NCBI GenBank assembly: GCA_963752475.1
Contig: CAVVYR010000008.1
Location: 64,001 to 128,000 of the forward strand
Source of the DNA: an uncultured Chloroflexia bacterium
GTDB taxonomy: Bacteria > Chloroflexota > Limnocylindria > Limnocylindrales > CSP1-4
DNA: 64,000 bases
Direction: 5' to 3'
Shown: piece by piece, positions 5,866 to 43,346 of the stretch
How positions within the stretch are numbered: the stretch's first letter is position 1
Layout: each line of letters opens with the position of its first letter
The notes under the pieces: generated by a model
The model's database searches: none
Seen by the model: only the letters and a program-made list of their open reading frames with translations
What the model was told of the DNA's origin: nothing
Made by a program: the position numbers and the translations under genes

Positions 5866-5899
5866 GTGGCCGAGCTGGCTAGGCATGGGGAGGATTGAC

Positions 5900-7526: not shown

Positions 7527-7616
7527 ATGGCATTGCCTCTTCTGTCCGCTCTACCCAATAGCCTTGCGCTGCTAGTCATACGATGTAAGGGCGCTTGGCG
7601 ATACGACGGAAGAACC

Positions 7617-7973: not shown

Positions 7974-8377
7974 TTCGACCGCCAGACGTCGAGACCGACG
8001 TGTGGAGCCATGTGTTCGAAGTCGCGATCGGTCGTCAGCATCACGAGGTCATGGCGTAGACACATCTCTGCGAGCAAGGCGTCGACGGTTCCTGCCTGTA
8101 CCCCACGTCGTCGGCAGGTGGCCTGCAACTCTGCTGCCGCGATGTGGTCGCTGCGGTCGGGCATCAGCAGCGGGAGGGCGGCGAACCGGTCAAGGAGTCC
8201 GGCCCGCTGGCCACCGTCGCGCAGGCCCTGAAGGATCTCCTGCAGCACCAGCCCGGTGGTGAAGACGGCCTCACCGGTCTCAAGGGCGCGACTCAGTCGC
8301 TCGACGGTCGGGTCGGTCGATGACGATCGGCGTCGGAAGGCCAGCGACCACACGCTCGTGTCGACGAAGAAGTTCAC
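7970..8377 (-). CDS. vapC: PIN-domain toxin VapC
   Basis: FVDTSVW, VLQEILQG, VDALLA, LTTDRDF conserved acidic PIN motifs. Confidence 0.92.
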   Translation of the reverse strand: MNFFVDTSVWSLAFRRRSSSTDPTVERLSRALETGEAVFTTGLVLQEILQGLRDGGQRAGLLDRFAALPLLMPDRSDHIAAAELQATCRRRGVQAGTVDALLAEMCLRHDLVMLTTDRDFEHMAPHVGLDVWRSN

Positions 8378-8711: not shown

Positions 8712-10340
8712 GTGCGAACCGCCGAAGCACTGCTGGGTGCGCTGCGTGAAGCCGGCGCACGAGAGATCTTCGGCATCCCCGGCGACTTCGCGCTGCCCCT
8801 CTTCGAGGTCATCGAGCGCACCCGCACGCTGCCGCTGTATACGCTGAGCCATGAGCCGGCGGTGGGCTTCGCGGCCGACGCGGCAGCCCGCTTCCACGGT
8901 GGGATCGGGGTCGCCGCCATCACCTATGGCGCCGGCGCCTTCAACCTGGTCAACCCGGTCGCCGGCGCCTATGCCGAACGCTCACCGGTCGTCGTGCTCT
9001 CCGGCGCTCCCTCCCTGGCCGAGCGGTCCCGTGGGCTCCTGGTCCACCACCAAGCCCGCACCATCGAGTCGCAGCTCAACGTCTATCGCGAGATCACCTG
9101 CGACCAGGCCGTGCTCGACGACCCCTCGACCGCGGCCGAATCGATCGCCCGTGTCCTGCGCGCCGCGCGCGAGCACTCGCAGCCGGTCTACATCGAGATC
9201 CCGCGCGACATGGTCGCGGCGGAGATCGGCGAGGTGCCGGTGCTGCCGCCTTCCCCTGTCGATCCCGATGCGGTCCGTGCCGCGGCCACCGAGGTCCTCG
9301 ACCGGCTCGCCGCCGCCAACTCCCCGGTCTTGCTCGTCGACGCCGAGATCCGCCGCTTCGGAGTGGAGGCGGAGGTCGCCGAGCTGGCCGAGCTGCTGGG
9401 CATCCCTGTGGTCACGACCTTCATGGGCCGCGGCCTCCTGGCCGACGCACCGAACCCACCCATCGGCACCTACATCGGTGTCGCCGGCCAGCCCGAGATC
9501 ACGCAGCTCGTCGAGGGATCCGATGCCCTCTTCATGCTCGGCGTCATCCTCAGCGACACGAACTTCAGCACGGCCTCGCGCCAGATCGACCTGCGGCACG
9601 CGATCATCGCGGCCGAGCGCCAGGTCCGCCTCGGCTTCCACATCTACCACGACGTGCCGCTGCGCCATCTCGTGGAGGCCATGACCGTGGCGGCCACGCC
9701 CGCCGGCGGACGCCCCTCGCTTCCCTCCCCGCCCGAGCCCCCGACCGGACTCATCGCCGACGAGTCGTCCATCGGTCCGACCGACATCGCGACCGCGGTC
9801 AACGACCTCATGCGTGACCATCGTGCGATGCCCATCTCGTCGGACATGGGCGACTGCCTCTTCACGGCCATGGACATCGAGCACACGGCGCTGGTGGCGC
9901 CGGGCTACTACGCGGGCATGGGCTTCGGCGTTCCCGGCGGTCTCGGCATCCAGGCCGCGACCGGCGAACGGCCGTTGATCCTCGTCGGCGATGGCGCATT
10001 CCAGATGACCGGCTGGGAGCTGGGCAACTGCCAACGCTACGGCTGGGATCCCATCGTCATCGTCTTCAACAACGCCTCGTGGGAGATGCTGCGGGCATTC
10101 GGGCCGCAGGCCGGCTACAACGACCTGCCCGACTGGCCCTTCCACGAGCTGGCCGACTCGCTCGGCGGCGTGGGCATACGTGTCCGGACCCGCCGTGAAC
10201 TGGCCGAGGCGCTCGAACGGGCGGTGGCCGACGAAGGCCGCTTCGTGCTCATCGACGTGGTCATGGAGCGCGGACGCATCTCGAGCACGCTCAGCCGCTA
10301 CGTCGAGGGCTTCGAGCGGCAGCGAGCACGAGGCGCCTGA
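8712..10340 (+). CDS. ipdC: Indolepyruvate/phenylpyruvate decarboxylase (ThDP-dependent), copy 1
   Basis: IFGIPGDFALP, HEPAVGFAAD, LVHHQ, GDGAFQMTGWELGNC..FNNASW ThDP motif. Confidence 0.9.
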   Translation: MRTAEALLGALREAGAREIFGIPGDFALPLFEVIERTRTLPLYTLSHEPAVGFAADAAARFHGGIGVAAITYGAGAFNLVNPVAGAYAERSPVVVLSGAPSLAERSRGLLVHHQARTIESQLNVYREITCDQAVLDDPSTAAESIARVLRAAREHSQPVYIEIPRDMVAAEIGEVPVLPPSPVDPDAVRAAATEVLDRLAAANSPVLLVDAEIRRFGVEAEVAELAELLGIPVVTTFMGRGLLADAPNPPIGTYIGVAGQPEITQLVEGSDALFMLGVILSDTNFSTASRQIDLRHAIIAAERQVRLGFHIYHDVPLRHLVEAMTVAATPAGGRPSLPSPPEPPTGLIADESSIGPTDIATAVNDLMRDHRAMPISSDMGDCLFTAMDIEHTALVAPGYYAGMGFGVPGGLGIQAATGERPLILVGDGAFQMTGWELGNCQRYGWDPIVIVFNNASWEMLRAFGPQAGYNDLPDWPFHELADSLGGVGIRVRTRRELAEALERAVADEGRFVLIDVVMERGRISSTLSRYVEGFERQRARGA

Positions 10341-10349
10341 GCCGGTCCG
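10293..10349 (+). repeat. 57-bp direct repeat, copy 1 (3' end of ipdC1)
   Basis: agccgctacgtcgagggcttcgagcggcagcgagcacgaggcgcctgagccggtccg, identical to 20216-20272. Confidence 0.95.
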
Positions 10350-10355
10350 GCCTCG

Positions 10356-10892
10356 CTAACCGAGCGGCTCTGGGTAGACGCGGTTCGGCGTGTTGCGCCT
10401 GGTCGGCGCGGCCACGAGCTCGACCAGGCAACCGACATCGTCACCGTGCTCGTAGTAGGCGAAACGCCCGTCTCGTGAGAGGCCGAACCCATCGCCGGTC
10501 TGGACAGCGACCCAACCCTGGTCCTCGATCTCGGCGGCGGCGGCGGCGAAGTCGTCGACGTAGAAGTTGAAGTGATGGAGTGAGGCTCCTTGAGCGTCAA
10601 GGTACTCGTGCCAGATGCTCGGACCCTCGAGCGGCTGGATGATCTCCATGGTCAGATCACCCGACAGTGCCAGGCCATAGCGGATCTTGAAGTGCGCCGG
10701 CTGCCCGCGATAGGTCACACCCGTCAAGCCCTCACCGACCGTGTAGATCTTCCAGGGCCCGATGCCGAGTAGCTCCCAGTAGGCCCGGACCGAGGCATCC
10801 ACGTCCGGGACGACCAGGGCGATCTGGCCGACCGGCACACCGAATCGCGATCCACCGGCGAGTGGAGCTGGCACGTTTCCGACTCGTGGCAT
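10356..10892 (-). CDS. VOC family protein (methylmalonyl-CoA epimerase-like, Glyoxalase_4)
   Basis: QIALVVPDVD..GIGPW, MEIIQPLEGPSIWHEYL..LHHF, LVELV. Confidence 0.85.
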   Translation of the reverse strand: MPRVGNVPAPLAGGSRFGVPVGQIALVVPDVDASVRAYWELLGIGPWKIYTVGEGLTGVTYRGQPAHFKIRYGLALSGDLTMEIIQPLEGPSIWHEYLDAQGASLHHFNFYVDDFAAAAAEIEDQGWVAVQTGDGFGLSRDGRFAYYEHGDDVGCLVELVAAPTRRNTPNRVYPEPLG

Positions 10893-10936
10893 GGGGCCCT
10901 CCTCGGCTCCTCACTCGAACGCAGCGGCCCGCGCCC

Positions 10937-10991
10937 TTGACATGGAAGTGCGCCGCGGCCCACAATCCACACTGATTGTAACGCTGTTACA
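10937..10991 (+). promoter_or_regulatory. Sigma70-type promoter with downstream palindromic operator
   Basis: TTGACA (10937-10942), 18 bp, CACAAT (10961-10966); TGTAAC-gct-GTTACA at 10977-10991. Confidence 0.6.
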
Positions 10992-11025
10992 GACAGCTGC
11001 AGAGGTTCAGCACGGGGTGGCCGCG

Positions 11026-11781
11026 ATGTTCCAGGACTTGTTCTCCCTCGAGGGGAAGGTAGCACTGATCACCGGCGGCTCGGGGGCGATCGGACAGGGC
11101 GCAGCACAGGTCTTCCTCGAGCTCGGCGCCAAGGTCATCCTCGCCGGTCGGACCGAGGAGCACCTACGGGCTGCACGCGAAGCCCTGCCAGGCGACGCTG
11201 AGGTCGACACCGTCCTGGGCGATGCCTGTGACCCGACACACGTCGCCGAACTCGTCGAGGCTACCCGGGCGCATGGCGGTGTCGACATCCTCGTGAACAG
11301 CGTCGGCACCAACCGACGCAAGCCGATCCTGGAGGCAACGACCGAGGATCTCGAGTTCCTGTGGCAGGTCAACATGGCCAGCGTCTGGGCGGTGACGCAG
11401 GCGCTGGTGCCGCAGATGGTGGAGAAGGGCTACGGCAAGATCATCAACATGTGCTCGATCGGTTCATTCGTGGGGCTCGAGTTCAAGACCATGTACGCCA
11501 TCACCAAGGGCGCGCTGGCCCAACACACTCGCAGTGCCGCGGTCGAGCTGGCTCCGTACGGCATCAGGGTCAACGGGCTGGCTCCGGGCTACGTGGATAC
11601 GCCGATGACCCACGCCTGGATCCACTCCGAGCGTGAGGCCGAGTACCTGTCGAAGATCCCGCTCGGCAAGTACGCCGAAGTGTCCGACCTGCAGGGCGCG
11701 TTCGCGTTGCTGGCCTCGCCTGCCTCCGACCACATCACCGGCCAGATCGTCGTCATCGACGGCGGTGAGACGATCTGGTAG
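11026..11781 (+). CDS. SDR oxidoreductase (KduD / gluconate 5-dehydrogenase-like)
   Basis: TGGSGAIG, YAITKG (YxxxK), VNGLAPGYVDT, TGQIVVIDGG. Confidence 0.9.
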   Translation: MFQDLFSLEGKVALITGGSGAIGQGAAQVFLELGAKVILAGRTEEHLRAAREALPGDAEVDTVLGDACDPTHVAELVEATRAHGGVDILVNSVGTNRRKPILEATTEDLEFLWQVNMASVWAVTQALVPQMVEKGYGKIINMCSIGSFVGLEFKTMYAITKGALAQHTRSAAVELAPYGIRVNGLAPGYVDTPMTHAWIHSEREAEYLSKIPLGKYAEVSDLQGAFALLASPASDHITGQIVVIDGGETIW

Positions 11782-11809
11782 CCAGGCGCGGCAAGACCGG
11801 AGGAACAAG

Positions 11810-12469
11810 ATGCCTCTCAGGCGAGAAGCCACACTCGGGACGATGCTGGAGAGCGGCGTCGTGGCCGTCGTTCGGGTAGACGAGCCCAGTGGGCTCATCC
11901 CACTTGCCGGTGCGCTGCTGGAGGGCGGGGTCGCCCACACCGAGATCACGATGACCGTGCCGGGCGCGCTTCACGCCATCGAAGCGACGGTCCGCGAGTT
12001 CGGGGATGACGTCTTCGTGGGCGCCGGCACCGCGCTCGATGCCGTGACGGCTCGGTTGGCTATCAGCGCTGGTGCTTCCTTCATCGTAGCCCCCAGCTTC
12101 GATGCCGATGTGGTAGCCATGAGCCACCGCTATGGAGCGGTCGCGATCCCCGGCTGCCTGAGCCCGACTGAGATCATCACCGCCTGGTCGGCCGGCGCCG
12201 ACGTGATCAAGCTCTTCCCTGGACGCGTGGCCACGCCCGGCTACTTCAAGGACATCCTGGGTCCGTATCCCCAGGTGCGGCTGATGCCTACGGGCAACGT
12301 CAACCTCGAAACCACACCTGAGTACATCAAGGCCGGCGCGGTCGGCGTGGGTGTAGGCAAGGCGCTCGTCGATCCGGTCGCGTTCCGAGAGGGCCGCTGG
12401 GCGGACATCACCGACAACGCCCGCCGCTTGCGCACACTGGTCCAAGAAGCGAGGGAGTCGTTGGCGTGA
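11810..12469 (+). CDS. eda: KDPG/KHG aldolase
   Basis: VAVVR, EITMT, VGAGT, IPGCLSPTEI, IKLFPG, MPTGNV; GGAGGA RBS. Confidence 0.9.
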   Translation: MPLRREATLGTMLESGVVAVVRVDEPSGLIPLAGALLEGGVAHTEITMTVPGALHAIEATVREFGDDVFVGAGTALDAVTARLAISAGASFIVAPSFDADVVAMSHRYGAVAIPGCLSPTEIITAWSAGADVIKLFPGRVATPGYFKDILGPYPQVRLMPTGNVNLETTPEYIKAGAVGVGVGKALVDPVAFREGRWADITDNARRLRTLVQEARESLA

Positions 12470-13503
12470 GTGGGAGCCGCTTCAGGATGGTGGCCTTCGG
12501 AGAGCTGCTCATGCGGCTGGAGCCTCCGGGCCACCAGCGCATCGTCCAGGCGGGCTCCTTCGATGTCGGCTACACCGGCGGAGAAGCCAACGCGGCGGCG
12601 TTGCTGGCCGGGCTGGGCGTCGAGACAGCAGCCGTCTCCCGCGTGCCCGCCAACGAGGTCGGACAAGCCTGCATCAACCACTTGCGTCGCTATGGCATCG
12701 ACACGACCCATATCGCGCGCGGCGGCGAGCGGCTGGGTCTCTTCTATCTGGAGACCGGGGCGTCCCAACGCGCCTCGAAGGTCATCTACGATCGTGAGCA
12801 CACATCGCTGCGCAGTGCGTCGGCTGCTGACTTCGACTGGCCAGCCATCCTCGATGGCGCCGACTGGTTGCACTTCTCGGGCACCGCACCGGCGTCGGGG
12901 CCGGTAGTCATCGGTGTCCTCGAAGAGGGGCTCAGGTTGGCCCAGGAGCAGGGAGTCAAGGTCAGTTGCGATCTCAACTACCGTCGCAAACTGTGGACGC
13001 CCGAAGAGGCGCGAGCGGCGATGACTCGCCTGATGCCCTTCGTCGACATACTGATCGGCAACGAGGAGGACGCCATCACCGTCTTCGGTATCACTGCCGA
13101 GCACATCGATGTCGTCCAGGGGGAACTCGATACCGGGTCGTACCGACGTATCGCAGGTGAGCTCATGGAGCGCTATCAGCTGCAGGCAGTGGCGACCACG
13201 CTGCGCACGAGCATCTCGGCGTCCGTCAATCGCTGGGCCGGGCTGCTCTTCGACGGGACCGAGCAGTACCTCAGCCGCACCTACGACATCGATCCCATCG
13301 TTGACCGCGTCGGCGGTGGCGATTCGTTCGCGGGTGGACTCATCTACAGCCTGCTCCATGAGGTGGGGCCACAGGCGTCGGTCGAATTCGCTGTCGCAGC
13401 CTCCTGCCTCAAGCATGCCGTCCCCGGAGACTTCGCCTCCCTGTCGCTGCAGGAGATCGAGGCACTTGCGGGCGGCGATGCCTCGGGCCGAGTCCAACGA
13501 TGA
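12466..13503 (+). CDS. kdgK: 2-keto-3-deoxygluconate kinase (PfkB family)
   Basis: FGELLMRL, GGEANAA, CDLNYRRKLW, DRVGGGDSFAGG. Confidence 0.9.
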   Translation: MSGSRFRMVAFGELLMRLEPPGHQRIVQAGSFDVGYTGGEANAAALLAGLGVETAAVSRVPANEVGQACINHLRRYGIDTTHIARGGERLGLFYLETGASQRASKVIYDREHTSLRSASAADFDWPAILDGADWLHFSGTAPASGPVVIGVLEEGLRLAQEQGVKVSCDLNYRRKLWTPEEARAAMTRLMPFVDILIGNEEDAITVFGITAEHIDVVQGELDTGSYRRIAGELMERYQLQAVATTLRTSISASVNRWAGLLFDGTEQYLSRTYDIDPIVDRVGGGDSFAGGLIYSLLHEVGPQASVEFAVAASCLKHAVPGDFASLSLQEIEALAGGDASGRVQR

Positions 13504-13569
13504 TCTCGGCACGACGTTCGACGCCGATACGACGACGAGACATCGATGTGCGAGAGCTCAGGAGTTGAC

Positions 13570-15276
13570 ATGGCGACGCTACTCGGTCACACGCTTGGAA
13601 CACCCGGGCTGACGCCGCTCGAAGCCCTCGACCTGTTCGCGAAGTCTGGGCTCGACGGTGCCGAGATCATCTGGCTGGACGACTACCGCGGTGCCATCCC
13701 GGAAAGCGACGATGGCCGTGTGGTCGCGGAGGTCAGGGCGCACGCCGACGAGCTGGGCCTGTGCATCGGCGGTCTGACCCCCTATGTGACCGAGCTCAGC
13801 AGCCTTGACGACGATCTCCATGCGCGTGAGATCGCACGGCTGGAGCGGGCGATCGAGGTGGCTCGTGCGCTCGACTGCACACGCATCCGGGTCTACGCCG
13901 GCAAGCTCCTCGGCAACGAGCCCGAGGCTGACATCCCACGCTTGCGGGAGCGCCTGGTCGCTGCCCTCCGCCACCTCGGGCCCTTGGCCAATGACCAGGG
14001 CGTGGTGCTCTGCATCGAGAACCACTTCGGAACCATGACCGTCTCGGCGGCCGATACCGTCTCGATCATCGAGGAGGTCGACACCGTTGGCATCGGCATC
14101 CTCTACGACCAAGCCAATCTGACCTTCACCCGCCGTGAAGACTACGAAGAGGCCGTGGCCTTGCAGGCGCACTGGATCAGCCATGTGCACGTCAAGGATC
14201 TGGAGTGGATCCACCCTGACCGCGAACTCAGGACCGCCAATGTCGCCAGCATCGACAAGTCCGAGCGTGTCCACGCATCACGGATGATCGGCGACGGCGT
14301 CCTGAACTGGAAGGCGATCGTCGCGGCTATCCGCGCGACCGGCTACGACGGCAGCTACTCCCTCGAGTACGAGTACCGCTGGAACCCCGAGGACTTGCCG
14401 GTGCCTGAGGTCGGCTTCCCCGAGAGCGCGCGTCGACTGCGCGACTGCTTCGAATTCGTGAACGGCTCGGGCAGGATCGGTACGAATACCATCGGTCGCA
14501 CGATGCGTATGCTCGAACTCCTCGCGGGTGAGCCACGAGGACTGCGCATCACGGATCTGGCCAACGAGATGGGCCTCAACCGAGCCATCCCCCATCGCGT
14601 ACTGGCCGATCTCATCGGGCTCGGCTATGTCGCCCAGGACCCCCGCACCGAGCGCTACCGCGTGACCTACAAGCTGGGCAGCTTGGGTTTGCGCCAACTG
14701 GAGACCGCCGGCACCATGCGCTGGGCGCAGGACGAGCTCAACAAGCTGGCGGCAAGCACCCGAGAACTCGTGCGCCTGGCTGTCGCGGAGGGGGCCACCC
14801 TGACCTGGGTAGCCAAGGCCCAGGGCTCTGACTCGGCTCTGACCTACGACGGTGTCTCCGGCACGGAGGTCGTGCTGCACGCGACGGCCAGTGGAAAGGC
14901 CTTCCTCGCCACCCTGCCCGTGGCCGAGGCGGAGCGCACCATCGCCGAGCACGGGCTCGATCCCCAGACGAACCGCACCGAGACCGACCTCGAGGGGGTG
15001 CTGCAGGAGCTCGGCCTCACGCGCGAGCGCGGGTATGCCCTCGTAGAGGAGGAGATGGAGGTCGGCGTCTCGGCCATCGCGGCCCCCATCGTGCCGCCGC
15101 AGTCCGTGGATGGCCGGGCCGTCGCTACGGTAAGCATCGCGGGGCCTTCAGCTCGCCTCGACCACGAGCGCATGACGCGATACGCCGACGACCTCGTGGA
15201 GGTCGCCAACGAGCTGGCCGCCCAGTGGCATACCTACGAGTACATGACCGTGCTGGCCGCAGCAGGCGTGGACTGA
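13570..15276 (+). CDS. Sugar-phosphate isomerase/epimerase TIM barrel fused to an IclR-family regulator
   Basis: N-half CIENH, LYDQAN, HVHVKD, SLEYE (AP_endonuc_2); C-half HTH plus LHATASGKAFLA..RERGYA..SAIAAP..SIAGP (IclR). Confidence 0.85.
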   Translation: MATLLGHTLGTPGLTPLEALDLFAKSGLDGAEIIWLDDYRGAIPESDDGRVVAEVRAHADELGLCIGGLTPYVTELSSLDDDLHAREIARLERAIEVARALDCTRIRVYAGKLLGNEPEADIPRLRERLVAALRHLGPLANDQGVVLCIENHFGTMTVSAADTVSIIEEVDTVGIGILYDQANLTFTRREDYEEAVALQAHWISHVHVKDLEWIHPDRELRTANVASIDKSERVHASRMIGDGVLNWKAIVAAIRATGYDGSYSLEYEYRWNPEDLPVPEVGFPESARRLRDCFEFVNGSGRIGTNTIGRTMRMLELLAGEPRGLRITDLANEMGLNRAIPHRVLADLIGLGYVAQDPRTERYRVTYKLGSLGLRQLETAGTMRWAQDELNKLAASTRELVRLAVAEGATLTWVAKAQGSDSALTYDGVSGTEVVLHATASGKAFLATLPVAEAERTIAEHGLDPQTNRTETDLEGVLQELGLTRERGYALVEEEMEVGVSAIAAPIVPPQSVDGRAVATVSIAGPSARLDHERMTRYADDLVEVANELAAQWHTYEYMTVLAAAGVD

Positions 15277-15282
15277 GGGGTC

Positions 15283-16845
15283 ATGATCACTTCGAAGGTG
15301 GTCAGCGCGGCCGGGGCCGTGTCGCTGATCGAGGACGGACAGACGGTCGCCGCAGGCGGCAGCGGTCACCTACTGCAAGTCCCTGACGGCACCCTTGCCG
15401 CGCTGGGCGCCCGCTTCGAAGAGACTGGCGAACCGAGCGGCCTGACGGTCGTGCACACGATGGGCATCGGAGATAACGGCGAGCGGGGCCTGGGCCGCCT
15501 GGCGCGAAAGGGTCTGGTGCGCCGCTTCATCGGTTCACACTACGGGCACAACCCCGAGATCATGCGCATGATCGCCGACGACGAAGTCGAGGCCCTGGGC
15601 ATCCCGGGCGGGACCCTCTCGCTGCTCTATCGCGAGATCGCCGGGCACCGACCGGGTTTGCTGACCAAGGTCGGCATGGGCACGTTCGTCGATCCTCGCG
15701 TGGATGGCGGGCGTCTGAACGAGCGCACCACCGGCAACGTGGCCGAGGTCGTGGAGTTCGCGGGCGAAGAGTGGCTGTTCTACAAGGCCTTCCCCATCGA
15801 CGTGGGCATCATCCGCGCGACCACTGCCGACAACGACGGCAACGTGACCATGGAGGACGAGGCCGGCTTCGCCGACAACCTCGCATTGGCCTCGGCCGTG
15901 CACGTTTCGGGTGGCACGGTCATCGCCGAGGTCAAGCGCCTGGCGCAGGCCGGGACGCTGCCGGCCAAAGAGGTCGTGGTCCCGGGCATCCTCGTCGACG
16001 CCATCGTGGTCGACCCCGACCAGCACCAGACCGGCGCCACCGTCTATAGCCCCTATCTCGCGGGCACGCTGCGGGCCCCGGGCGCATCGATCCCGCGCTT
16101 GCCGACGGGGCCTCGCAAGGTCATCGCCCGACGCGCAGCCGACGAGCTGCACCCGGGAGACATCGTCAACCTGGGCTTCGGCGTCTCCAACGGCGTGGCC
16201 TCGGTGCTGGCCGAGGAAGGGCACTACGAGGACGTCGACTTCAGCATCGAGCAGGGCATCGTCGGCGGCATCCCCGGCGTCGGGCTCGACTCGGGCACGG
16301 CCATCAACGCCGGGGCCTACATCGACGAAGGCGCCCAGTTCGACCTCTACGATGGCGGCGCGCTGGACGTGGCCTGCGTGGCCTTCGGTGAAGTGGACGC
16401 CGTGGGCAACGTCAACGTGAGCAAGCTGGGCGGTCGCGCGGTGGGCCCCGGCGGCTTCATCAACATCACCCAGAACGCCCGCCGCGTCGTCTTCTGCGGC
16501 ACGCTGACCGGCGGCGGGCTGGACATCGGCGTCAGCGAGGCCGGCCTGGAGCTGCGGACCGAGGGCCGCTACCGCAAGTTCGTGGGGCGCACGGCGCACA
16601 TCACCTTCTCGGCCGCGCACGGCGACCCGCGACGCGAGGTCCTCTATGTCACCGAACGCGCCGTCTTCCGGCTGGCGAACGGCGGCCTGGAGCTGATCGA
16701 GGTCGCGCCGGGCATCGACCTCGAGCGGGACGTGCTGGGACAGATGGACTTCGCGCCGGCAGTGGCCGACCAGCTACGGACCATGGATGCACGCCTCTTC
16801 CGCGATGGGTTCATGGGCAACGTCAGACACCTGGTGGAGGACTAG
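15283..16845 (+). CDS. Acyl-CoA:acetate/3-ketoacid CoA transferase (YdiF/Pct family)
   Basis: TKVGMGTFVDPR, VNLGFG, SIEQG (catalytic Glu), GPGGFINITQNA, YVTERAVF. Confidence 0.9.
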   Translation: MITSKVVSAAGAVSLIEDGQTVAAGGSGHLLQVPDGTLAALGARFEETGEPSGLTVVHTMGIGDNGERGLGRLARKGLVRRFIGSHYGHNPEIMRMIADDEVEALGIPGGTLSLLYREIAGHRPGLLTKVGMGTFVDPRVDGGRLNERTTGNVAEVVEFAGEEWLFYKAFPIDVGIIRATTADNDGNVTMEDEAGFADNLALASAVHVSGGTVIAEVKRLAQAGTLPAKEVVVPGILVDAIVVDPDQHQTGATVYSPYLAGTLRAPGASIPRLPTGPRKVIARRAADELHPGDIVNLGFGVSNGVASVLAEEGHYEDVDFSIEQGIVGGIPGVGLDSGTAINAGAYIDEGAQFDLYDGGALDVACVAFGEVDAVGNVNVSKLGGRAVGPGGFINITQNARRVVFCGTLTGGGLDIGVSEAGLELRTEGRYRKFVGRTAHITFSAAHGDPRREVLYVTERAVFRLANGGLELIEVAPGIDLERDVLGQMDFAPAVADQLRTMDARLFRDGFMGNVRHLVED

Positions 16846-16847
16846 AC

Positions 16848-17339
16848 ATGGAAGGTGGCCTCCTGCGCTACGAGGACCTGCACGTCGGGCTCGAGTTCGA
16901 CAGCCCCACCCGCACCATCACCGAGAGCGACGTCATGACCTTCGCGGGCTTGACCGGCGACTACTCGGAGCTCCACACGAGTGCGGCCTTCGCCGAGCAG
17001 ACGCAGTACGGGCGGCGAGTGGCCCATGGCCTGCTGGGCCTGTCAGTGGCGCACGGGCTGATGTGGCCCCGGACCAACGCCATGCGCGACATCGCCATCG
17101 CCCTGCTGGGCATCTCCGACTGGCGCTTCCGGGGCCCCGTCTTCCTGGGCGACACCGTCCGCGTGCGCTACCGCGTGGCCGAGATGCGCGACAGCCGCTC
17201 CAACCCCGAGCAGGCCATCGTGACCTTCGAGGTGGAGGTCTTCAATCAGTCCGGCGAGCTGGTGCAGGGCGGCCGCAAGGTACTGCTCGTTTCCAAGACA
17301 CCGCTGCCCGCCACCAAAGACGATCAGGACCTAACGTAA
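16848..17339 (+). CDS. MaoC-family (R)-specific dehydratase
   Basis: RTITESDVMTFAGLTGDYSELH..RVAHGLL..WRFRGPVFLGDT. Confidence 0.88.
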   Translation: MEGGLLRYEDLHVGLEFDSPTRTITESDVMTFAGLTGDYSELHTSAAFAEQTQYGRRVAHGLLGLSVAHGLMWPRTNAMRDIAIALLGISDWRFRGPVFLGDTVRVRYRVAEMRDSRSNPEQAIVTFEVEVFNQSGELVQGGRKVLLVSKTPLPATKDDQDLT

Positions 17340-17349
17340 CAGTGTTACA
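17335..17349. promoter_or_regulatory. Second copy of the GTAAC-N3-GTTAC palindrome, upstream of the ABC genes
   Basis: cGTAAC-agt-GTTACa, matching 10977-10991. Confidence 0.55.
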
Positions 17350-17388
17350 CTGCGCCAACCAGACGCGACCTGGGGAGACTACAGCCTG

Positions 17389-18234
17389 ATGTCCGACGCC
17401 TCGCGCAACAGCGCCAGCACGTCTGTCGGGCGGTCCACCGAGGAGTGGGATCGCGAACGGCGGAAGCGCAAGGTCCGTCGTGTCTGGTACTCGCTACTAC
17501 CCGTCCTGACCTTCAGCCTGATCCTGCTGGGCTGGTGGGCCTTCGTCGTCATCGCCGATGTGCCCGAGTACATCGTGCCCTCGCCGCTGGACGTGTTCCC
17601 GCGGCTCATCGAGGACCTCGACCGCTTGGTCGAGGAGTCCATGGTCACGATGCAGGAGATCTTCCTGGGCTACTTCCTGGCTGTGGTGCTGGCCATCCCG
17701 CTGGGCCTGTTGCTGGCGATGAACGAGATGGCCAAGCGCGCGCTCTATCCGGCCGTCGTCTTCATCCAGCTCATCCCCAAGATCGCGGTGGCGCCGCTGT
17801 TCCTCGTCTGGTTCGGCTTCGGCATGCAGTCCAAGGTCCTGCTGGTCTTCCTGCTGACCTACTTCCCGCTGCTGCTCGCGAGCATGGCCGGCTTCTCCAT
17901 CCTCGACGACCGGCTGCTCCACCTCACCCGTTCCATGGGTGCCTCGCAGCTGCAGACGTTCCGCTACCTGCGTTTGCCCAGTGCCCTGCCCATCATCTTC
18001 AGCGGCCTCAAGACCTCGGCCACCATCGCCGCCACGGCCGCCATCGTGGCCGAGTTCGTGGGTGCCAACAAGGGTCTGGGCTACCTGCTCCTGGAAGCCA
18101 CATCCACGCTCGATACCGAACTCATCTTCGCCATCATCCTCGTGCTCACGCTCATCGGCATCGGTCTCAACTACCTTGTCGAGTTCGTCGAGTACTTCAC
18201 CACGCCCTGGACGCGTAAGGCCAAGGAACAATGA
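17389..18234 (+). CDS. ABC transporter permease (NitT/TauT/SsuC family)
   Basis: YIVPSP, IPKIAVAPLFLVWFGFG, LRLPSALP, AEFVGANKGLGY. Confidence 0.92.
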   Translation: MSDASRNSASTSVGRSTEEWDRERRKRKVRRVWYSLLPVLTFSLILLGWWAFVVIADVPEYIVPSPLDVFPRLIEDLDRLVEESMVTMQEIFLGYFLAVVLAIPLGLLLAMNEMAKRALYPAVVFIQLIPKIAVAPLFLVWFGFGMQSKVLLVFLLTYFPLLLASMAGFSILDDRLLHLTRSMGASQLQTFRYLRLPSALPIIFSGLKTSATIAATAAIVAEFVGANKGLGYLLLEATSTLDTELIFAIILVLTLIGIGLNYLVEFVEYFTTPWTRKAKEQ

Positions 18235-18322
18235 CCAACCGAATCGAGTAGGAAGTGTCGGAGCACCCGGAGTCCTCGTCCAGGGGGGTCTCGACGGTGC
18301 TCCGCAAGACAAGGAGGAGTCC

Positions 18323-19342
18323 ATGCGGACCAAGAGGACACTGGCTCTGGGAATGAGCTTCGTGATGGCATTGGGAGCGGCGACGTCCATCGCCGGCACC
18401 GTTGCCGCCCAGGACGAGCCGCTCGAGCAAGTCACCTTCCAGCTCAACTGGGTCCCGGGTGGCTTCCACGCCGGGTTCGCCCTGGCACGTGAGGCCGGCT
18501 ACTACGAAGACGAAGGCCTCTTCGTCCACCTCGTGCCCGGCAACGGCTCGGCCACCACGGCTCAGCTGACCGCCGCCGGCAACGTCAACCTCGGCAATGC
18601 CGATGCGGCGCCGGTGACGCAGCTGGTAGCCAAGGGCGCGCCGGTCAAGGTCATCGCCACGCTCTTCCAGGGCTCGCCCATCCAGATCACGGCCAAGGCC
18701 GATTCCGGCATCACCGAGATCAGCGACCTCGAAGGCCGGTCGCTGGCCTATCCATCGGGTGGATCGCAGGCCGCGCAGCTGCCGCTGGTCTTCGCCGCCA
18801 ACGGTGTCGATGCCGACGCGGTCGAGCTGGTGCCGACCCCGCGCGAGGCACTCGTGCCCGTGTTGCTCGAGGACCAGGTCGACGCCATCGTCGGCTCCAT
18901 GGACTTCTTCGGCATCCAGCTGGCCGACCGCGGCATCGAGACCGTCGACTTCCCGATGTACGAGAATGGCGCACCGACGGTGAGCACCTCCATCATCGGC
19001 AACGAGGACTGGATGGCTGAGAACCCCGAGACGACGCAGAAGTTCGTCAAGGCCAGCCTGCGTGGCTGGGCCGAGGCGCTGGAGAACCCCGACGCAGCCA
19101 TCGAAGCGCTGGCCGCGCTGTTCCGCAACGTGGATGCCGAGGAGGCCCAGAAGCAGCTCGAGGCCACGATCCCGCTGTACTGTGCCAATGGTGCCCAGTA
19201 CCTGGGCAAGGCCACCGAGGAAGCGTGGGTCAACCACGAGATGGTGATGCGCGAGTCCGGCAGCATCGAGGAGGCAGTCGAGCCGACCGACCTCTACACC
19301 TACGACTACCTGCCTCCCGACGAAGAGCTGTCGCCCTGCTAG
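18323..19342 (+). CDS. ABC substrate-binding protein (NMT1/THI5-like)
   Basis: Signal peptide; FQLNWVPGGFHAGF..AGYYEDEGL..GNGS; AGGAGG RBS. Confidence 0.88.
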   Translation: MRTKRTLALGMSFVMALGAATSIAGTVAAQDEPLEQVTFQLNWVPGGFHAGFALAREAGYYEDEGLFVHLVPGNGSATTAQLTAAGNVNLGNADAAPVTQLVAKGAPVKVIATLFQGSPIQITAKADSGITEISDLEGRSLAYPSGGSQAAQLPLVFAANGVDADAVELVPTPREALVPVLLEDQVDAIVGSMDFFGIQLADRGIETVDFPMYENGAPTVSTSIIGNEDWMAENPETTQKFVKASLRGWAEALENPDAAIEALAALFRNVDAEEAQKQLEATIPLYCANGAQYLGKATEEAWVNHEMVMRESGSIEEAVEPTDLYTYDYLPPDEELSPC

Positions 19343-19380
19343 CAGTCCCGGCAACCGAGGAGTAGGAGACAGGGTCAGGG

Positions 19381-20217
19381 ATGATGGATCGAGCCGAAAC
19401 GGAAGCCCGTGGTGTACGCCTCGAGGTCGATGGCGTGTCGCGCGTCTTCAATGAGTTCAGTGACGACCCGTTCCTGGCCCTGTCCGAGACCGATCTGACA
19501 TTCGAGCCAGGTGAGTTCGTGAGCGTGGTCGGCCCGAGTGGCTGTGGCAAGTCCACGCTCATGCTCATCGCCGCCGGACTGCTGCCACCGTCTACCGGAG
19601 AGATCCGAATCGATGGCGAGGTCCAGACCAAGCCGATGACCGATGTCGGCATCGCCTTCCAGGACCACCTCTTGCTCGATTTCCGGACGGCCAAGGAGAA
19701 CGTCCTCTTGCAGGCCGACATCCGGGGTCTGGACCGGGCCGAGCTGACCAGGAGGACCGACGAGCTCTTCGAGCAGCTCGGGTTGCACCAGGGTGCGGGT
19801 GACAAGTACCCGCGCCAGCTCTCAGGCGGGATGCGCCAGCGCGTCGCGCTTGCGAGGACGGTCGTCCACCGCCCATCGATGCTCATGCTCGATGAGCCGT
19901 TCGGGGCCCTCGATGCCCTGACCCGCTTGCAGGTCCGCCACGATCTCGAGCAGTTGTGGCTGCAGTACCGCCCAACGGTGCTTTTCGTGACCCACTCCGT
20001 CGAGGAGGCGGTCGGCCTCTCCGACCGGATCGTGGTCTTCTCCACGTCACCCGGCAGCATCGTCGACGAGATCACAGTCGACCTACCCCGACCACGGCCA
20101 CTGTCTCTGGGCGACACGCCCGAGTACGCCAAATATGCCGACCGCGTCTTCGAGCACTTCGAGTCGATGGGCGTGCTTTCCGAAGGCAGCGGCGGAGAGC
20201 CCCCGACCGTTCTCTAG
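19381..20217 (+). CDS. ABC transporter ATP-binding protein (NitT/TauT)
   Basis: GPSGCGKST, LSGGMRQR, LDEPFGALD, FVTHSVEEAV. Confidence 0.93.
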   Translation: MMDRAETEARGVRLEVDGVSRVFNEFSDDPFLALSETDLTFEPGEFVSVVGPSGCGKSTLMLIAAGLLPPSTGEIRIDGEVQTKPMTDVGIAFQDHLLLDFRTAKENVLLQADIRGLDRAELTRRTDELFEQLGLHQGAGDKYPRQLSGGMRQRVALARTVVHRPSMLMLDEPFGALDALTRLQVRHDLEQLWLQYRPTVLFVTHSVEEAVGLSDRIVVFSTSPGSIVDEITVDLPRPRPLSLGDTPEYAKYADRVFEHFESMGVLSEGSGGEPPTVL

Positions 20218-20272
20218 CCGCTACGTCGAGGGCTTCGAGCGGCAGCGAGCACGAGGCGCCTGAGCCGGTCCG
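20216..20272 (+). repeat. 57-bp direct repeat, copy 2 (orphan ipdC 3' end)
   Basis: Identical to 10293-10349; overlaps the ATPase stop codon. Confidence 0.95.
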
Positions 20273-21932: not shown

Positions 21933-23561
21933 ATGCAGTTGGCCGAGGCGCTTCTGGAAGCGCTCCACCGTGCTGGAGCGAGGGAGATCTTCGGCATCCC
22001 GGGGGACTTCGCGCTGCCCTACTTCGAGGTCATCGAGCGCAGTGGCGTGATGCCGCTGTACACGCTGAGCCACGAACCGGCGGTGGGGTTCGCGGCTGAT
22101 GCCGGCACCCGCTTCCGCGGTGGCCTGGGCGTGGCCGCGATCACCTACGGCGCGGGTGCCTTCAACCTCGTCAACGCCGTAGCCGGCTCGTACGCTGAGC
22201 GGTCCCCGGTGGTCGTGCTCTCGGGAGCACCGTCGCGCCCTGAACGCACCTCTGGCCTGCTCGTCCACCATCAGGCCCGAACGCTCGACTCCCAGCTCAA
22301 CGTCTATCGCGAGATCACCTGCGACCAGGCCGTGCTCGACGATCCGCGCACAGCACCGGAGGCCATCGCCCGCGTCATCCGTTCCTGCCATGAACGGTCG
22401 CAGCCGGTGTACATCGAGATCCCGCGCGACATCGTCGGTGCCGAGGTGGAACCGGTACCCGACCTGCCGGCGAGCCCGGTCGACCCCGATGCCGTGGAGG
22501 CAGCAGCCGTGGAGGTGCTGGCCCGTCTGGAGGCCGCTCGCTCGCCGGTGATGATGGTCGACGCGGAGATCCGCCGCTACGGCGTCGAAGCCAAGGTGGC
22601 CGATCTGGCGCACAAGCTGCATATCCCGGTGGTGACCACGTTCATGGGCCGTGGCCTCCTGGTCGACTCGGCCAACCCGCCGCTGGGCACCTACATCGGC
22701 GTCGCCGGCGAGCCGGAGATCACCGAGCTGGTCGAGACCTCCGATGCGCTGCTCCTTCTGGGGGTCATCCTCTCGGACCTCAACTTCGCGGTCTCACTAC
22801 GCAAGATCGACCTGCGCAAGACCATCCTCGCCGCGCAGCGGGAGGTGCGGCTGTCGCACCACATCTATCCCCATATCCCGCTCGAAGCGCTCGTCGACGC
22901 CATGGCCCTGCGGGCACGGCGGCTGGGTGACCGGCCAGACGTCGCAGCGCCCCCGCAGCCACCCTATGGCCTGGCCCTCGACGACGGATCGGTCACGCCA
23001 CATGACATCGCCACCGCGGTCAACGACATGATGCACCGGCACGGACCGCTGCCCATGGCATCCGACATGGGTGACTGCCTGTTCACGGCCATGGACGTCG
23101 ACCACCACGCCATCGCTGCGCCCGGCTACTACGCGGGCATGGGCTTCGGCATCCCCGCGGGCCTGGGCATCCAGGCCGCCACGGGCGAGCGTGCGCTGGT
23201 GCTGGTCGGCGACGGCGCCTTCGAGATGACCGGCCTCGAGCTGGGCAATTGCCGGCGCTATGGCTGGGATCCGATCGTCATCGTCTTCAACAACGCCTCG
23301 TGGGAGACCCTGCGTGCCTTCGTGCCCAAGGCCCGCTTCACCGATCGGGAGAAGTTGGCCTTCCACGAGATGGCCGAGCCACTCGGCGGCGTGGGCATCC
23401 GTGTCCGCACCAGGCGTGAGCTGGCGGCCGCACTCGAACAGGCGGTCGAGACCCGCGGCCGCTTCGTGCTCATCGACGTCGAGCTCGAACCGGGCGGCAT
23501 GTCGCGCACGCTCCGTCGCTACATCGAGGCCTTCGAGCGCAAGCGCGGCCAGGGAGGCTAG
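21933..23561 (+). CDS. ipdC: Indolepyruvate/phenylpyruvate decarboxylase, copy 2
   Basis: Same length (542 aa) and motifs as 8712-10340. Confidence 0.9.
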   Translation: MQLAEALLEALHRAGAREIFGIPGDFALPYFEVIERSGVMPLYTLSHEPAVGFAADAGTRFRGGLGVAAITYGAGAFNLVNAVAGSYAERSPVVVLSGAPSRPERTSGLLVHHQARTLDSQLNVYREITCDQAVLDDPRTAPEAIARVIRSCHERSQPVYIEIPRDIVGAEVEPVPDLPASPVDPDAVEAAAVEVLARLEAARSPVMMVDAEIRRYGVEAKVADLAHKLHIPVVTTFMGRGLLVDSANPPLGTYIGVAGEPEITELVETSDALLLLGVILSDLNFAVSLRKIDLRKTILAAQREVRLSHHIYPHIPLEALVDAMALRARRLGDRPDVAAPPQPPYGLALDDGSVTPHDIATAVNDMMHRHGPLPMASDMGDCLFTAMDVDHHAIAAPGYYAGMGFGIPAGLGIQAATGERALVLVGDGAFEMTGLELGNCRRYGWDPIVIVFNNASWETLRAFVPKARFTDREKLAFHEMAEPLGGVGIRVRTRRELAAALEQAVETRGRFVLIDVELEPGGMSRTLRRYIEAFERKRGQGG

Positions 23562-43142: not shown

Positions 43143-43346
43143 GGGTCGATGATAGGGCGCCCATGGGAACGTCTTCACGTGCGCTCGCCGGCGGTACCAA
43201 GAGGCGGTTCGTGGCAGATAGGACTAGTACTGATGGGCCCCTCCCATCTGCCCTCCACTACACCGAACATGAGCCGAGCAAGCCCACCGTACGGGACCCG
43301 AACCGATTCGCATGCACCCTCACCGGCACGTGCACGAGCTCGCGCG

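What the first reader, a model, noticed from the sequence alone, without database searches (positions are those of the whole stretch)
10356..20217. Candidate CoA-dependent entry into Entner-Doudoroff sugar-acid catabolism
Seen: kdgK and eda cluster with an SDR, a TIM-barrel epimerase, a YdiF/Pct CoA transferase, a MaoC dehydratase, a methylmalonyl-CoA-epimerase-like VOC and a NitT-type ABC importer. No IlvD/Edd, enolase-superfamily or UxaA/UxuA dehydratase is present. Established: those families normally make the 2-keto-3-deoxy acid, while MaoC and MCE act on acyl-CoA thioesters. Inference: an aldonate could be CoA-activated, epimerised at C2 and dehydrated by MaoC to a 2-keto-3-deoxy acid for KdgK/Eda. 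I do not know of a described route like this.
Basis: inference. Interest (0 to 1): 0.7.

Follow-up and report, generated by a model that had tools for sequence, protein, structure and literature searches.

The report
CoA-linked sugar-acid breakdown gene island
A 9.9-kb accessory gene island in an uncultured Chloroflexia bacterium joins the last two Entner-Doudoroff enzymes to a CoA-transferase, a MaoC hydratase and an importer instead of a normal sugar-acid dehydratase, which suggests, but does not prove, an undescribed CoA-dependent way of breaking down acid sugars.

Summary
It holds no classical sugar-acid dehydratase.

The region is one unit. Exact 57-nt direct repeats flank it, and a DNA contig from a public run lacks exactly this stretch.

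The whole gene set recurs in 6 of 80 CoA-transferase-anchored genome loci, all Chloroflexota, in one metagenome contig, and twice more in this MAG. Other KdgK/Eda pairs in the MAG sit beside enolase-type dehydratases.

The sub-module of importer, MaoC and CoA-transferase is widespread in soil metagenomes and on Burkholderiaceae plasmids. There it pairs with other acid-sugar enzymes: a 2,4-diketo-3-deoxy-acid hydrolase-like FAH, D-erythronate dehydrogenase and a DUF1537 kinase.

This supports CoA-dependent processing of an acid sugar feeding KdgK/Eda (confidence about 0.4). Most relatives carry further acyl-CoA enzymes. The TIM barrel is not excluded as the dehydratase.

Nothing similar turned up in my literature searches. 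The nearest published case is a proposed deoxyribonyl-CoA route.

The parts
10293..10349 (.). Left copy of an exact 57-nt direct repeat. It is the 3' end of the flanking TPP-enzyme gene, including its stop codon.
   Evidence: a contig of DNA run X1 joins 10292 to 20216
10356..10892 (-). VOC/glyoxalase-fold protein (178 aa), transcribed divergently from the operon.
   Evidence: PF13669 at 58.8 bits; MCE model 31.5 bits against cut-off 114.95; best PDB match 3gm5
10937..10966 (+). Promoter-like site (TTGACA-18-CACAAT) in the 133-nt divergent spacer.
   Evidence: a consensus match only
11026..11781 (+). SDR of the gluconate 5-dehydrogenase / KduD / DhuD group. The start is inferred from the N-terminal Rossmann motif.
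11810..12469 (+). Eda, KDPG/KHG aldolase.
   Evidence: PF01081 at 136.8 bits; TIGR01182 at 166.5 bits against cut-off 156; start
12466..13503 (+). PfkB kinase of KDG-kinase type. It overlaps the eda stop by 4 nt.
   Evidence: GGGD motif at residue 283
13546..14461 (+). Xylose-isomerase-like TIM barrel (isomerase, epimerase or dehydratase). The end is given as in short-read contigs. In the window's letters the frame runs on to 15276.
14458..15276 (+). IclR-family regulator. The GTG start at 14458 applies if base 14453 is absent.
15283..16845 (+). Family I CoA-transferase, fused YdiF/Pct type, 520 aa. Glu323 aligns with YdiF Glu333.
16848..17339 (+). MaoC-type hydratase/dehydratase, 163 aa. Asp38 and His43 are invariant in 8 orthologues.
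17389..18234 (+). ABC permease, NitT/TauT type.
18323..19342 (+). NMT1/THI5-type solute-binding protein with a signal peptide.
19381..20217 (+). ABC ATPase.
20216..20272 (.). Right copy of the 57-nt direct repeat.

Best explanation
The island is a self-contained, IclR-controlled operon for catabolism of an imported acid sugar, most likely a hexonate or hexuronate. The steps below are inferred, not shown.

1. The NitT/TauT-type ABC system takes the acid up.
2. The YdiF/Pct-type CoA-transferase converts it to its CoA thioester.
3. The thioester acidifies the alpha-proton, so the MaoC hydratase, running in the dehydration direction, eliminates the beta-hydroxyl.
4. The enol product tautomerises to a keto-deoxy acyl-CoA. 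The transferase passes the CoA on to the next substrate molecule.
5. The free keto-deoxy acid is brought to 2-keto-3-deoxygluconate by the KduD/Ga5DH-like SDR and the TIM-barrel isomerase or epimerase.
6. KdgK phosphorylates it, and Eda splits it to pyruvate and glyceraldehyde 3-phosphate.

Two regiochemical versions fit the gene set equally.

- An aldonate is activated at C1 and loses the 3-OH. This gives the 2-keto-3-deoxy acid directly, and SDR and TIM then normalise stereochemistry through a 5-keto intermediate.
- A hexuronate is activated at C6 and loses the 4-OH. This gives 4-deoxy-5-keto-uronate, with the TIM barrel and SDR standing in for KduI and KduD.

What is shown: the gene content, intact catalytic residues in the transferase and MaoC, conserved linkage, the unit character of the island, and the absence of classical dehydratases. 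What is inferred: every biochemical step.
For: 1. The island is one unit. All nine + strand genes run from 11026 to 20217 with overlaps or gaps of at most 88 nt. Exact 57-nt repeats bracket VOC to ATPase. A contig of DNA run X1 skips exactly this 9923-nt stretch.

2. Linkage is conserved.
- The full set occurs in 6 of 80 CoA-transferase-anchored genome loci, all Chloroflexota MAGs.
- It occurs in 1 of 33 MaoC-anchored metagenome loci of at least 6 kb (L104).
- It occurs in two further copies in this MAG, on C1 and C30.
- Gene order differs in L011, L012 and L104, yet the genes stay together.

3. The MAG provides its own contrast. Its other KdgK/Eda pairs, on C6, C34 and C27, lie next to enolase-superfamily genes. 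The three copies of this cluster have none.

4. The only transporter in the island belongs to a module that is conserved across phyla. Against Burkholderia sp. SFA1 the identities are MaoC 60%, permease 59%, ATPase 68%, binding protein 46% and CoA-transferase 52%.

5. That module sits next to other acid-sugar enzymes.
- An FAH protein scores 395 bits to 2,4-didehydro-3-deoxy-L-rhamnonate hydrolase, below the cut-off of 500. FAH is present in 5 of 33 loci.
- D-erythronate dehydrogenase scores above its cut-off in L129 and L094. A similar gene is present in L153 and L161.
- A DUF1537-type kinase is present in L129.
- A LacI regulator accompanies the module on the plasmids.

6. Catalytic residues are intact. 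CoA-transferase Glu323 aligns with YdiF Glu333. MaoC Asp38 and His43 are invariant. The roles of these residues are recalled, not taken from a call.

7. The SDR's best solved relatives are gluconate 5-dehydrogenases and DhuD/KduD.

8. There is no thiolase or acyl-CoA dehydrogenase in the island. Chain shortening is therefore not encoded here.
Against: - No biochemical or genetic datum exists, and the substrate is unknown.
- The window's cluster is the reduced form. 8 of 10 complete clusters also carry a crotonase, and 7 of 10 carry a second SDR and a family III CoA-transferase. 5 of 10 carry a DegT-type aminotransferase. A single dehydration may be too simple, and the C1 copy could supply missing steps in trans.
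- The commonest form of the module in soil has no KdgK, Eda or TIM barrel (1 of 33 loci). It carries a shikimate-dehydrogenase-like gene in 17 of 33 loci. This could point to alicyclic hydroxy acids rather than sugars.
- The TIM-barrel family includes dehydratases (IolE, AsbF), and its profile scores them about as well as epimerases.
- 2-Oxoacyl-CoA thioesters are reactive. No MaoC enzyme acting on a 2,3-dihydroxyacyl-CoA is known to me (recalled).
- The MAG has two KduI/IolB-family genes elsewhere, and no GH28 or GH88 was found. A uronate source is therefore not evident. The MAG is 88.8% complete.
Confidence: 0.4

Rival explanations
1. The CoA module performs a beta-oxidation-like sequence of hydration, oxidation and hydrolytic ring or chain opening. 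Its substrate would be an unsaturated or alicyclic polyhydroxy acid, such as a shikimate- or quinate-like compound or an unsaturated uronate. SDR, TIM, KdgK and Eda then consume the linear polyhydroxy product. On this reading MaoC acts as a hydratase, not as a stand-in for a sugar-acid dehydratase.
For: - Most clusters combine MaoC with a crotonase and a dehydrogenase: ECH in 26 of 33 metagenome loci, a shikimate-DH-like gene in 17 of 33, and ECH plus a second SDR in 7 of 10 Chloroflexota clusters. This is the enzyme trio of alicyclic ring cleavage on CoA esters (recalled from the benzoyl-CoA and cyclohexanecarboxylate pathways).
- The regulator resembles PcaR/PcaU: TIGR02431 at 137 bits, below its cut-off.
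- The TIM profile also hits AsbF and the TIM-plus-VOC dehydroshikimate dehydratase entry 5hmq.
Against: - The window's own cluster and L082 have neither a crotonase nor a second SDR.
- The C7 ring-opening products I could derive for shikimoyl-CoA lack a primary alcohol for a KDG-type kinase (inference).
- Shikimoyl-CoA appears in the searched literature only in biosynthesis.
- Acid-sugar enzymes (DenD, a DUF1537 kinase, the rhamnonate-type FAH) accompany the module.
Confidence: 0.2
2. The TIM-barrel protein is the dehydratase, acting as IolE or AsbF do on a keto intermediate made by the SDR, and it supplies the keto-deoxy acid for KdgK and Eda. CoA-transferase and MaoC handle a second moiety or a by-product of the imported compound, for example a hydroxyacyl group.
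For: - The family contains dehydratases. IolE (45.3 bits) and AsbF (43.5 bits) score close to the best hit, Art22 (51.3 bits).
- TIM and SDR always travel with KdgK and Eda.
- A VOC-TIM fusion exists in a homologue.
Against: - The module occurs with keto-deoxy-acid enzymes of other kinds where no TIM barrel is present, as on the plasmids and in L118, L148 and L149.
- No hydrolase that would split a conjugate is encoded in the island.
- The only importer is the one bound up with MaoC.
Confidence: 0.15
3. These are two unrelated operons, a KDG utilisation set and a short-chain acyl-CoA set, that merely lie side by side.
For: Homologues of the CoA-transferase at 54% identity or less occur in many unrelated contexts: 74 of 80 loci lack KdgK, Eda and TIM.
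Against: - The two sets stay together in 10 of 10 clusters, across rearrangements and within-genome duplication.
- A single regulator sits between the two halves.
- Genes abut or nearly abut across the two halves: KdgK overlaps the eda stop by 4 nt, the transferase starts 7 nt after the regulator's stop, and MaoC starts 3 nt after the transferase's stop.
- The whole set is gained or lost as one 9.9-kb unit.
Confidence: 0.05

Closest known systems
Classical KDG or KDGal operons (dehydratase + KdgK/DgoK + Eda/DgoA), including the MAG's own copies on C6, C34 and C27
   Same: A PfkB kinase and a class I aldolase end the pathway. Each cluster is a self-contained unit for one acid sugar.
   Different: Those clusters carry an enolase-superfamily, IlvD/Edd or UxaA/UxuA dehydratase. 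This island has none, and has a CoA-transferase plus MaoC in its place.
CaiB/CaiD 'carnitine dehydratase' and Pct plus lactoyl-CoA dehydratase: dehydration of a hydroxy acid on its CoA ester, with CoA recycled by a transferase (recalled)
   Same: The proposed logic is the same: a transferase paired with a hydratase gives a net, CoA-catalytic dehydration of a free acid.
   Different: The protein families differ. CaiB is family III and CaiD is a crotonase; here the pair is family I and MaoC. The substrates differ as well, and nothing is shown biochemically here.
Proposed CoA-bound deoxyribonate route of Klebsiella michiganensis (Price et al. 2019, PMC6365646; passages read)
   Same: A sugar acid is proposed to be carried as a CoA thioester. 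The cluster combines a CoA-activating enzyme, a CoA-transferase and a sugar-acid kinase.
   Different: [quoted passage not shown] This island has no thiolase, has a MaoC hydratase, and ends in KdgK and Eda.
KduI/KduD and UxaC/UxuB/UxuA hexuronate routes (recalled)
   Same: An aldose-ketose isomerase plus a keto-acid reductase feed KDG to KdgK and Eda. The SDR's nearest solved relatives include DhuD/KduD and gluconate 5-dehydrogenases.
   Different: The isomerase here has a different fold, the xylose-isomerase-like TIM barrel. UxaC and UxuA were not found in the MAG, which is 88.8% complete. The SDR is below every curated cut-off.
Non-phosphorylative L-rhamnose/L-fucose diketo-hydrolase branch (LRA5/LRA6; recalled), as comparator for the proteobacterial form of the module
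   Same: The FAH protein of the Burkholderia cluster scores 395 bits on the 2,4-didehydro-3-deoxy-L-rhamnonate hydrolase model.
   Different: The score is below the cut-off of 500. The neighbouring dehydrogenase is shikimate-DH-like, not an SDR. No enolase-type rhamnonate dehydratase is present.

Membership tests
KDPG/KHG aldolase (Eda) | Match to the curated eda model above its cut-off | tested here: met
   TIGR01182 at 166.5 bits against 156.05; PF01081 at 136.8 bits
KDPG/KHG aldolase (Eda) | Schiff-base lysine and catalytic glutamate | not tested
   No residue-level alignment to a solved Eda was made
KDG kinase (PfkB family) | PfkB fold and the C-terminal GxGD anion-hole motif | tested here: met
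   PF00294 at 101.7 bits; DRVGGGD at residue 283 (the motif is recalled)
KDG kinase (PfkB family) | Match to a curated KDG-kinase equivalog above its cut-off | tested here: not met
   NF041332 at 213 against 440; NF052444 at 34 against 400. The kinase half of NF041633 scores 486 against 700, a cut-off set for the whole fusion
Family I CoA-transferase, fused YdiF/Pct type | CoA_trans domains in one chain, aligned end to end with YdiF, with the catalytic glutamate | tested here: met
   PF01144. 2ahu at 430 bits, residues 6-514. Glu323 aligns with Glu333 (the role of Glu333 is recalled)
Family I CoA-transferase, fused YdiF/Pct type | Acceptor specificity (short-chain or hydroxy acids versus acid sugars) | not testable with these tools
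   Requires an enzyme assay
MaoC / (R)-specific enoyl-CoA hydratase | Hot-dog MaoC domain with the Asp...His hydratase motif | tested here: met
   PF01575 at 80 bits. GDYSELH, with D38 and H43 invariant in 8 of 8 orthologues. The usual N-P of the motif is replaced by S-E (the motif is recalled)
Methylmalonyl-CoA epimerase | Match to TIGR03081 above its cut-off | tested here: not met
   31.5 bits against 114.95. PDB MCE entries score E of about 0.003
Characterised subfamilies of the xylose-isomerase-like TIM barrel (IolE, IolO, ketose 3-epimerase, OtnI, AsbF) | Match to any curated subfamily model above its cut-off | tested here: not met
   IolE at 42 against 290; IolO at 40.5 against 300; psicose epimerase at 33 against 300; OtnI at 20 against 325. 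A profile against the PDB gives 25-51 bits for all of them
KduD / gluconate 5-dehydrogenase | Match to a curated model above its cut-off | tested here: not met
   KduD at 184 against 369; Ga5DH at 195 against 279; PRK07231 at 210.6 against 215. The nearest solved structures are Ga5DH and DhuD
NitT/TauT ABC importers of known ligand (TauA, SsuA, NrtA, ThiY) | Binding protein above the cut-off of a curated model | tested here: not met
   SsuA_fam at 87 against 163.5; TauA at 37 against 304. Best PDB match is 4nmy, of unknown ligand, then ThiY at 65 bits
Sugar-acid dehydratases (enolase superfamily, IlvD/Edd, UxaA/UxuA) | Presence of a member in the cluster | tested here: not met
   None by Pfam. 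None by tblastn of 8 own-genome members against the window and 91 loci

The most novel reading that the evidence does not exclude
Importer, family I CoA-transferase and MaoC, with or without a crotonase, form a mobile and widespread 'CoA-dependent acid-sugar dehydratase' module. It replaces all three metal-dependent sugar-acid dehydratase superfamilies. It has been plugged into at least three different downstream routes: KdgK/Eda in Chloroflexota; a dehydrogenase plus diketo-acid hydrolase in soil Proteobacteria; and D-erythronate dehydrogenase plus a DUF1537 kinase in others. Chain length or stereochemistry would be set by the binding protein and by accessory epimerising enzymes.
Probability: 0.3. 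Interest if true: 0.8.

Novelty: new variant of a known kind. Interest (0 to 1): 0.6.

Why it matters
Formation of 2-keto-3-deoxy acids is the committed step of nearly all acid-sugar pathways. It is currently assigned to three metal- or Fe-S-dependent dehydratase families. A thioester-based alternative would have several consequences.

- It would add a new mechanistic solution to this step.
- It would explain 'missing dehydratase' gaps in pathway reconstruction.
- It would give a function to a module seen at least 518 times in one metagenome scan, mostly from soil-type records, and present on Burkholderiaceae and Rhizobium plasmids.
- It would provide a metal-independent route for engineering.

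The claim can be tested directly with a handful of recombinant proteins. Cultured carriers of the module also exist for genetics.

Tried and rejected
- TIM::IclR enzyme-regulator fusion: rejected as a feature. All 31 of 31 homologues cover only the TIM half. Relatives have a stop and a spacer. Contigs of DNA run X1 and of RNA-library run X2 both lack base 14453, which restores two genes overlapping by 4 nt.

- VOC as methylmalonyl-CoA epimerase: rejected as a membership claim.

- Flanking TPP enzymes, YbaK and Usp as parts of the pathway: rejected. They lie outside the 57-nt repeats and are absent from all related loci.

- Pectin or uronate supply in the MAG: no GH28, no GH88, no UxaC and no UxuA were found. 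Two KduI/IolB-family genes lie elsewhere. The MAG is 88.8% complete, so this does not decide between the aldonate and uronate versions.

- Identity of the best TIM relative, Art22 (PDB 8z1i): two literature searches gave nothing usable.

- The 246-aa protein of the proteobacterial clusters: no Pfam or NCBIfam match. Atlas neighbours are all hypothetical proteins.

- Flanks of metagenome locus L149 and the KdgK/Eda cluster on C27 gave nothing that bears on the function.

- RNA-library contigs (X2 and X5 of study P2; X4 of study P3) lie on parts of the island at 90-100% likeness. The tool warns that DNA can be present in such libraries, and no silent stretch was laid. I therefore do not count this as shown transcription.

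- Literature. There were no papers for gluconyl-, glucuronyl-, galacturonyl- or xylonyl-CoA names. Shikimoyl-CoA appeared only in two biosynthesis papers. The searches found nothing describing this system. These searches cover only the held open-access and bioRxiv library. Supplements were not consulted.

Full report
**What is there**

The window is G000:C8:64001-128000 of a 4.25-Mb, 38-contig MAG that is 88.8% complete with 5.8% contamination. Its closest public relatives are 'uncultured Chloroflexia' MAGs. Window G+C is about 0.65-0.70.

- VOC, 10356-10892, minus strand.
- SDR, ORF from 10891; the likely start is 11026.
- Eda, likely 11810-12469.
- KdgK, 12466-13503.
- A xylose-isomerase-like TIM barrel, from 13546.
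- A fused family I CoA-transferase, 15283-16845.
- MaoC, 16848-17339.
- A NitT/TauT-type permease, 17389-18234.
- An NMT1-type binding protein. Its true start is 18323, with a Shine-Dalgarno sequence and a signal peptide.
- An ATPase, 19381-20217.

Genes on the + strand overlap or are separated by at most 88 nt. A promoter-like site lies in the divergent spacer between the VOC and SDR genes.

No thiolase, acyl-CoA dehydrogenase or classical sugar-acid dehydratase is encoded. I also ran tblastn with eight of the MAG's own enolase-superfamily, IlvD and UxaA-like proteins. It found nothing in the window or in 91 related loci.

**Component details**

- CoA-transferase. It aligns end to end with E. 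coli YdiF (2ahu, 430 bits). Glu323 lies opposite YdiF Glu333. That this is the catalytic glutamate is recalled.
- MaoC. It has the Asp-x4-His hydratase motif as GDYSELH. D38 and H43 are invariant in eight orthologues from two phyla.
- Eda. It passes the curated eda model (166.5 bits against 156).
- KdgK. It is a PfkB kinase with a GGGD motif. It scores 486 bits on the kinase half of an aldolase/kinase fusion model. It is below the cut-offs of the curated KDG-kinase equivalogs.
- SDR. Its nearest solved relatives are gluconate 5-dehydrogenases and DhuD/KduD.
- TIM barrel. It cannot be placed. A 27-sequence profile scores Art22, ketose 3-epimerases, IolE, AsbF and others at 25-51 bits.
- VOC. 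It is not a methylmalonyl-CoA epimerase by the curated model (31.5 bits against 114.95).

**The apparent TIM::IclR fusion is probably an assembly error**

- All 31 of 31 database homologues cover only the TIM half.
- Relatives have a stop codon and a spacer at this position.
- Short-read contigs of DNA run X1 and of RNA-library run X2 both lack one base at 14453.
- Without that base the TIM gene ends at 14461, and the regulator can start at GTG 14458.

**The island is one unit**

An exact 57-nt direct repeat occupies 10293-10349 and 20216-20272. It consists of the last 48 nt of the upstream TPP-enzyme gene plus 9 nt, and it brackets VOC through ATPase.

In DNA run X1 one contig joins 10292 to 20216 and so skips 9923 nt. 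Its depth is 12.6. The flanks have depths of 13.6 and 11.8, while the island bins have 1.8-6.9.

This fits a population in which many genomes lack the island. A de Bruijn-graph short cut through the repeat cannot be fully excluded. X1 may also be the sample the MAG came from.

The island is rare among relatives. A TIM orthologue at E <= 1e-20 was found in 1 of 300 other genomes sampled from the class, and in none of the 3 genomes of the same genus.

**Gene-neighbourhood test**

Anchored on the CoA-transferase. 6 of 80 genome loci carry the whole set: L009, L010, L011, L012, L082 and L087. All are Chloroflexota MAGs with transferase identity of 69-84%. The other 74, at 54% identity or less, lack KdgK, Eda and TIM.

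Within the MAG. The whole cluster occurs three times: on C8 (the window), on C1 (60-80% identity, with some frameshifts), and on the 11-kb contig C30 (many frameshifts).

Complete clusters compared. Adding metagenome contig L104 gives ten complete clusters.

- All ten keep SDR, Eda, KdgK, TIM, IclR, CoA-transferase, MaoC and the ABC genes together, although gene order differs in L011, L012 and L104.
- Only the window and L082 have this minimal set.
- 8 of 10 add a crotonase.
- 7 of 10 add a second SDR and a family III CoA-transferase.
- 5 of 10 add a DegT-type aminotransferase.
- The VOC is present in 7 of 10.

Contrast inside the MAG. Its other KdgK/Eda pairs, on C6, C34 and C27, lie directly beside enolase-superfamily genes.

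**The module outside Chloroflexota**

Plasmids of Burkholderia sp. SFA1, YI23 and RPE67 and of Caballeronia sp. NK8 carry this arrangement: a LacI regulator, then permease, binding protein, MaoC, ATPase, crotonase, a 246-aa unknown protein, FAH, CoA-transferase, a shikimate-dehydrogenase-like gene and IclR.

Identities to the window's proteins are 60% for MaoC, 59% for the permease, 46% for the binding protein, 68% for the ATPase, 52% for the transferase and 40% for IclR.

A metagenome scan with a MaoC alignment found 518 relatives, and 80 loci were kept. Among the 33 loci of at least 6 kb the counts were as follows:

| Gene near MaoC | Loci of 33 |
|---|---|
| ABC genes | 31 |
| Crotonase | 26 |
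| CoA-transferase | 25 |
| Shikimate-DH-like gene | 17 |
| IclR | 17 |
| 246-aa unknown protein | 16 |
| FAH | 5 |
| KdgK/Eda/TIM set | 1 |

Many of the loci that lack a gene are cut short by contig ends.

Other acid-sugar enzymes accompany the module:

- The FAH protein scores 395 bits on the 2,4-didehydro-3-deoxy-L-rhamnonate hydrolase model, below the cut-off of 500.
- In L129 the module lies next to a DUF1537-type kinase and a D-erythronate dehydrogenase that passes its cut-off (348 against 325).
- The Rhizobium plasmid locus L094 has a D-erythronate dehydrogenase as well (364 bits).
- Similar genes end the operon in L153 and L161.

The module therefore keeps company with enzymes of acid-sugar catabolism of at least three unrelated kinds.

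**Interpretation**

The simplest reading of the window's minimal cluster is that the transferase and MaoC together perform a net dehydration of the imported acid on its CoA ester, with CoA recycled. The CaiB/CaiD carnitine system works this way (recalled). SDR, TIM, KdgK and Eda then finish the job.

An aldonate activated at C1 and a hexuronate activated at C6 both use every gene, and I cannot separate the two. UxaC and UxuA were not found in the MAG. Two KduI/IolB-family genes exist elsewhere, and no GH28 or GH88 was found.

The extra acyl-CoA enzymes of most relatives and the shikimate-dehydrogenase-like gene of the common soil form keep a more complex CoA-level chemistry, or a non-sugar hydroxy acid, in play. 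The TIM barrel could itself be a dehydratase. I put the main reading at 0.4.

**Novelty**

My searches found no paper naming aldonyl- or uronyl-CoA esters. They found no description of this gene set either.

The nearest published idea is the proposed deoxyribonyl-CoA route of Klebsiella michiganensis: synthetase, hydroxyacyl-CoA dehydrogenase, thiolase, CoA-transferase and glycerate kinase (Price et al. 2019, PMC6365646; passages read). The companion paper PMC9007349 mentions an unknown glyceryl-CoA hydrolase (passages read). That route cleaves a 2-deoxy acid rather than dehydrating a polyhydroxy acid.

I therefore rate this a new variant of a known kind. It is supported by comparative genomics only.

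**Limits**

- All function is inferred.
- Several relatives come from long-read MAGs with frameshifts.
- Identities from tblastn segments are approximate.
- The literature library is partial, and supplements were closed.

Noticed in passing
window 10293-10349 and 20216-20272: An exact 57-nt direct repeat, the 3' end of the TPP-enzyme gene, brackets the 9.9-kb island. No integrase or transposase lies inside. A contig of DNA run X1 has the empty-site form at higher depth than the island.
   Followed up: partly
window 14453: Short-read contigs of a DNA run and of an RNA-library run lack one base here. The window's TIM::IclR fusion ORF (13546-15276, 576 aa) is therefore probably an assembly error.
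   Followed up: yes
G000:C1:192975-209286 (L098) and G000:C30 (L099): Two further copies of the whole cluster lie in the same MAG. The C1 copy is the extended form, with a crotonase, a second SDR, a family III CoA-transferase, DegT, EamA and a DeoC/LacD-type aldolase. Both copies show frameshifts in several genes. C30 is an 11-kb contig made up only of the cluster and may be a mis-binned strain variant.
   Followed up: partly
L089 (AP022308.1) 11273-17110, minus strand; also L092: Next to the proteobacterial module lies a second operon. It holds another YdiF-type CoA-transferase (52% identical to the window's), an SDR, an aldo-keto reductase, an MFS permease and a class II aldolase/adducin-family protein.
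   Followed up: no
protein P0029 (459 aa, ENA contig of 39 kb): A homologue of the TIM barrel (40% identity) is fused to an N-terminal Glyoxalase_4 (VOC) domain. This VOC is not detectably similar to the window's VOC by BLASTP.
   Followed up: partly
G000:C27:56000-67500 (L097): Another Eda plus KdgK pair (70% identical to the window's) sits with a sugar ABC system, a cytochrome P450 and a URO-D-like protein. This is an odd combination for a sugar cluster.
   Followed up: no
window 44115-44962: A 12-nt tandem repeat (CCGGAGCCCACG, 70.7 copies, 91% matches) lies inside a 1014-aa ORF (42903-45947). It causes the composition spike at 44-46 kb (G+C 0.729, AT skew 0.45).
   Followed up: partly
window 7527-8377: A truncated TetR-like ORF (C-terminal domain only) lies next to a PIN-domain ORF on the opposite strand. 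An FGGY sugar kinase lies at 5885-7423.
   Followed up: no
window 8712-10340 and 21933-23561: Two paralogous 542-aa TPP-dependent enzymes flank the island, together with YbaK and Usp genes. They are not conserved next to the cluster in any relative.
   Followed up: partly
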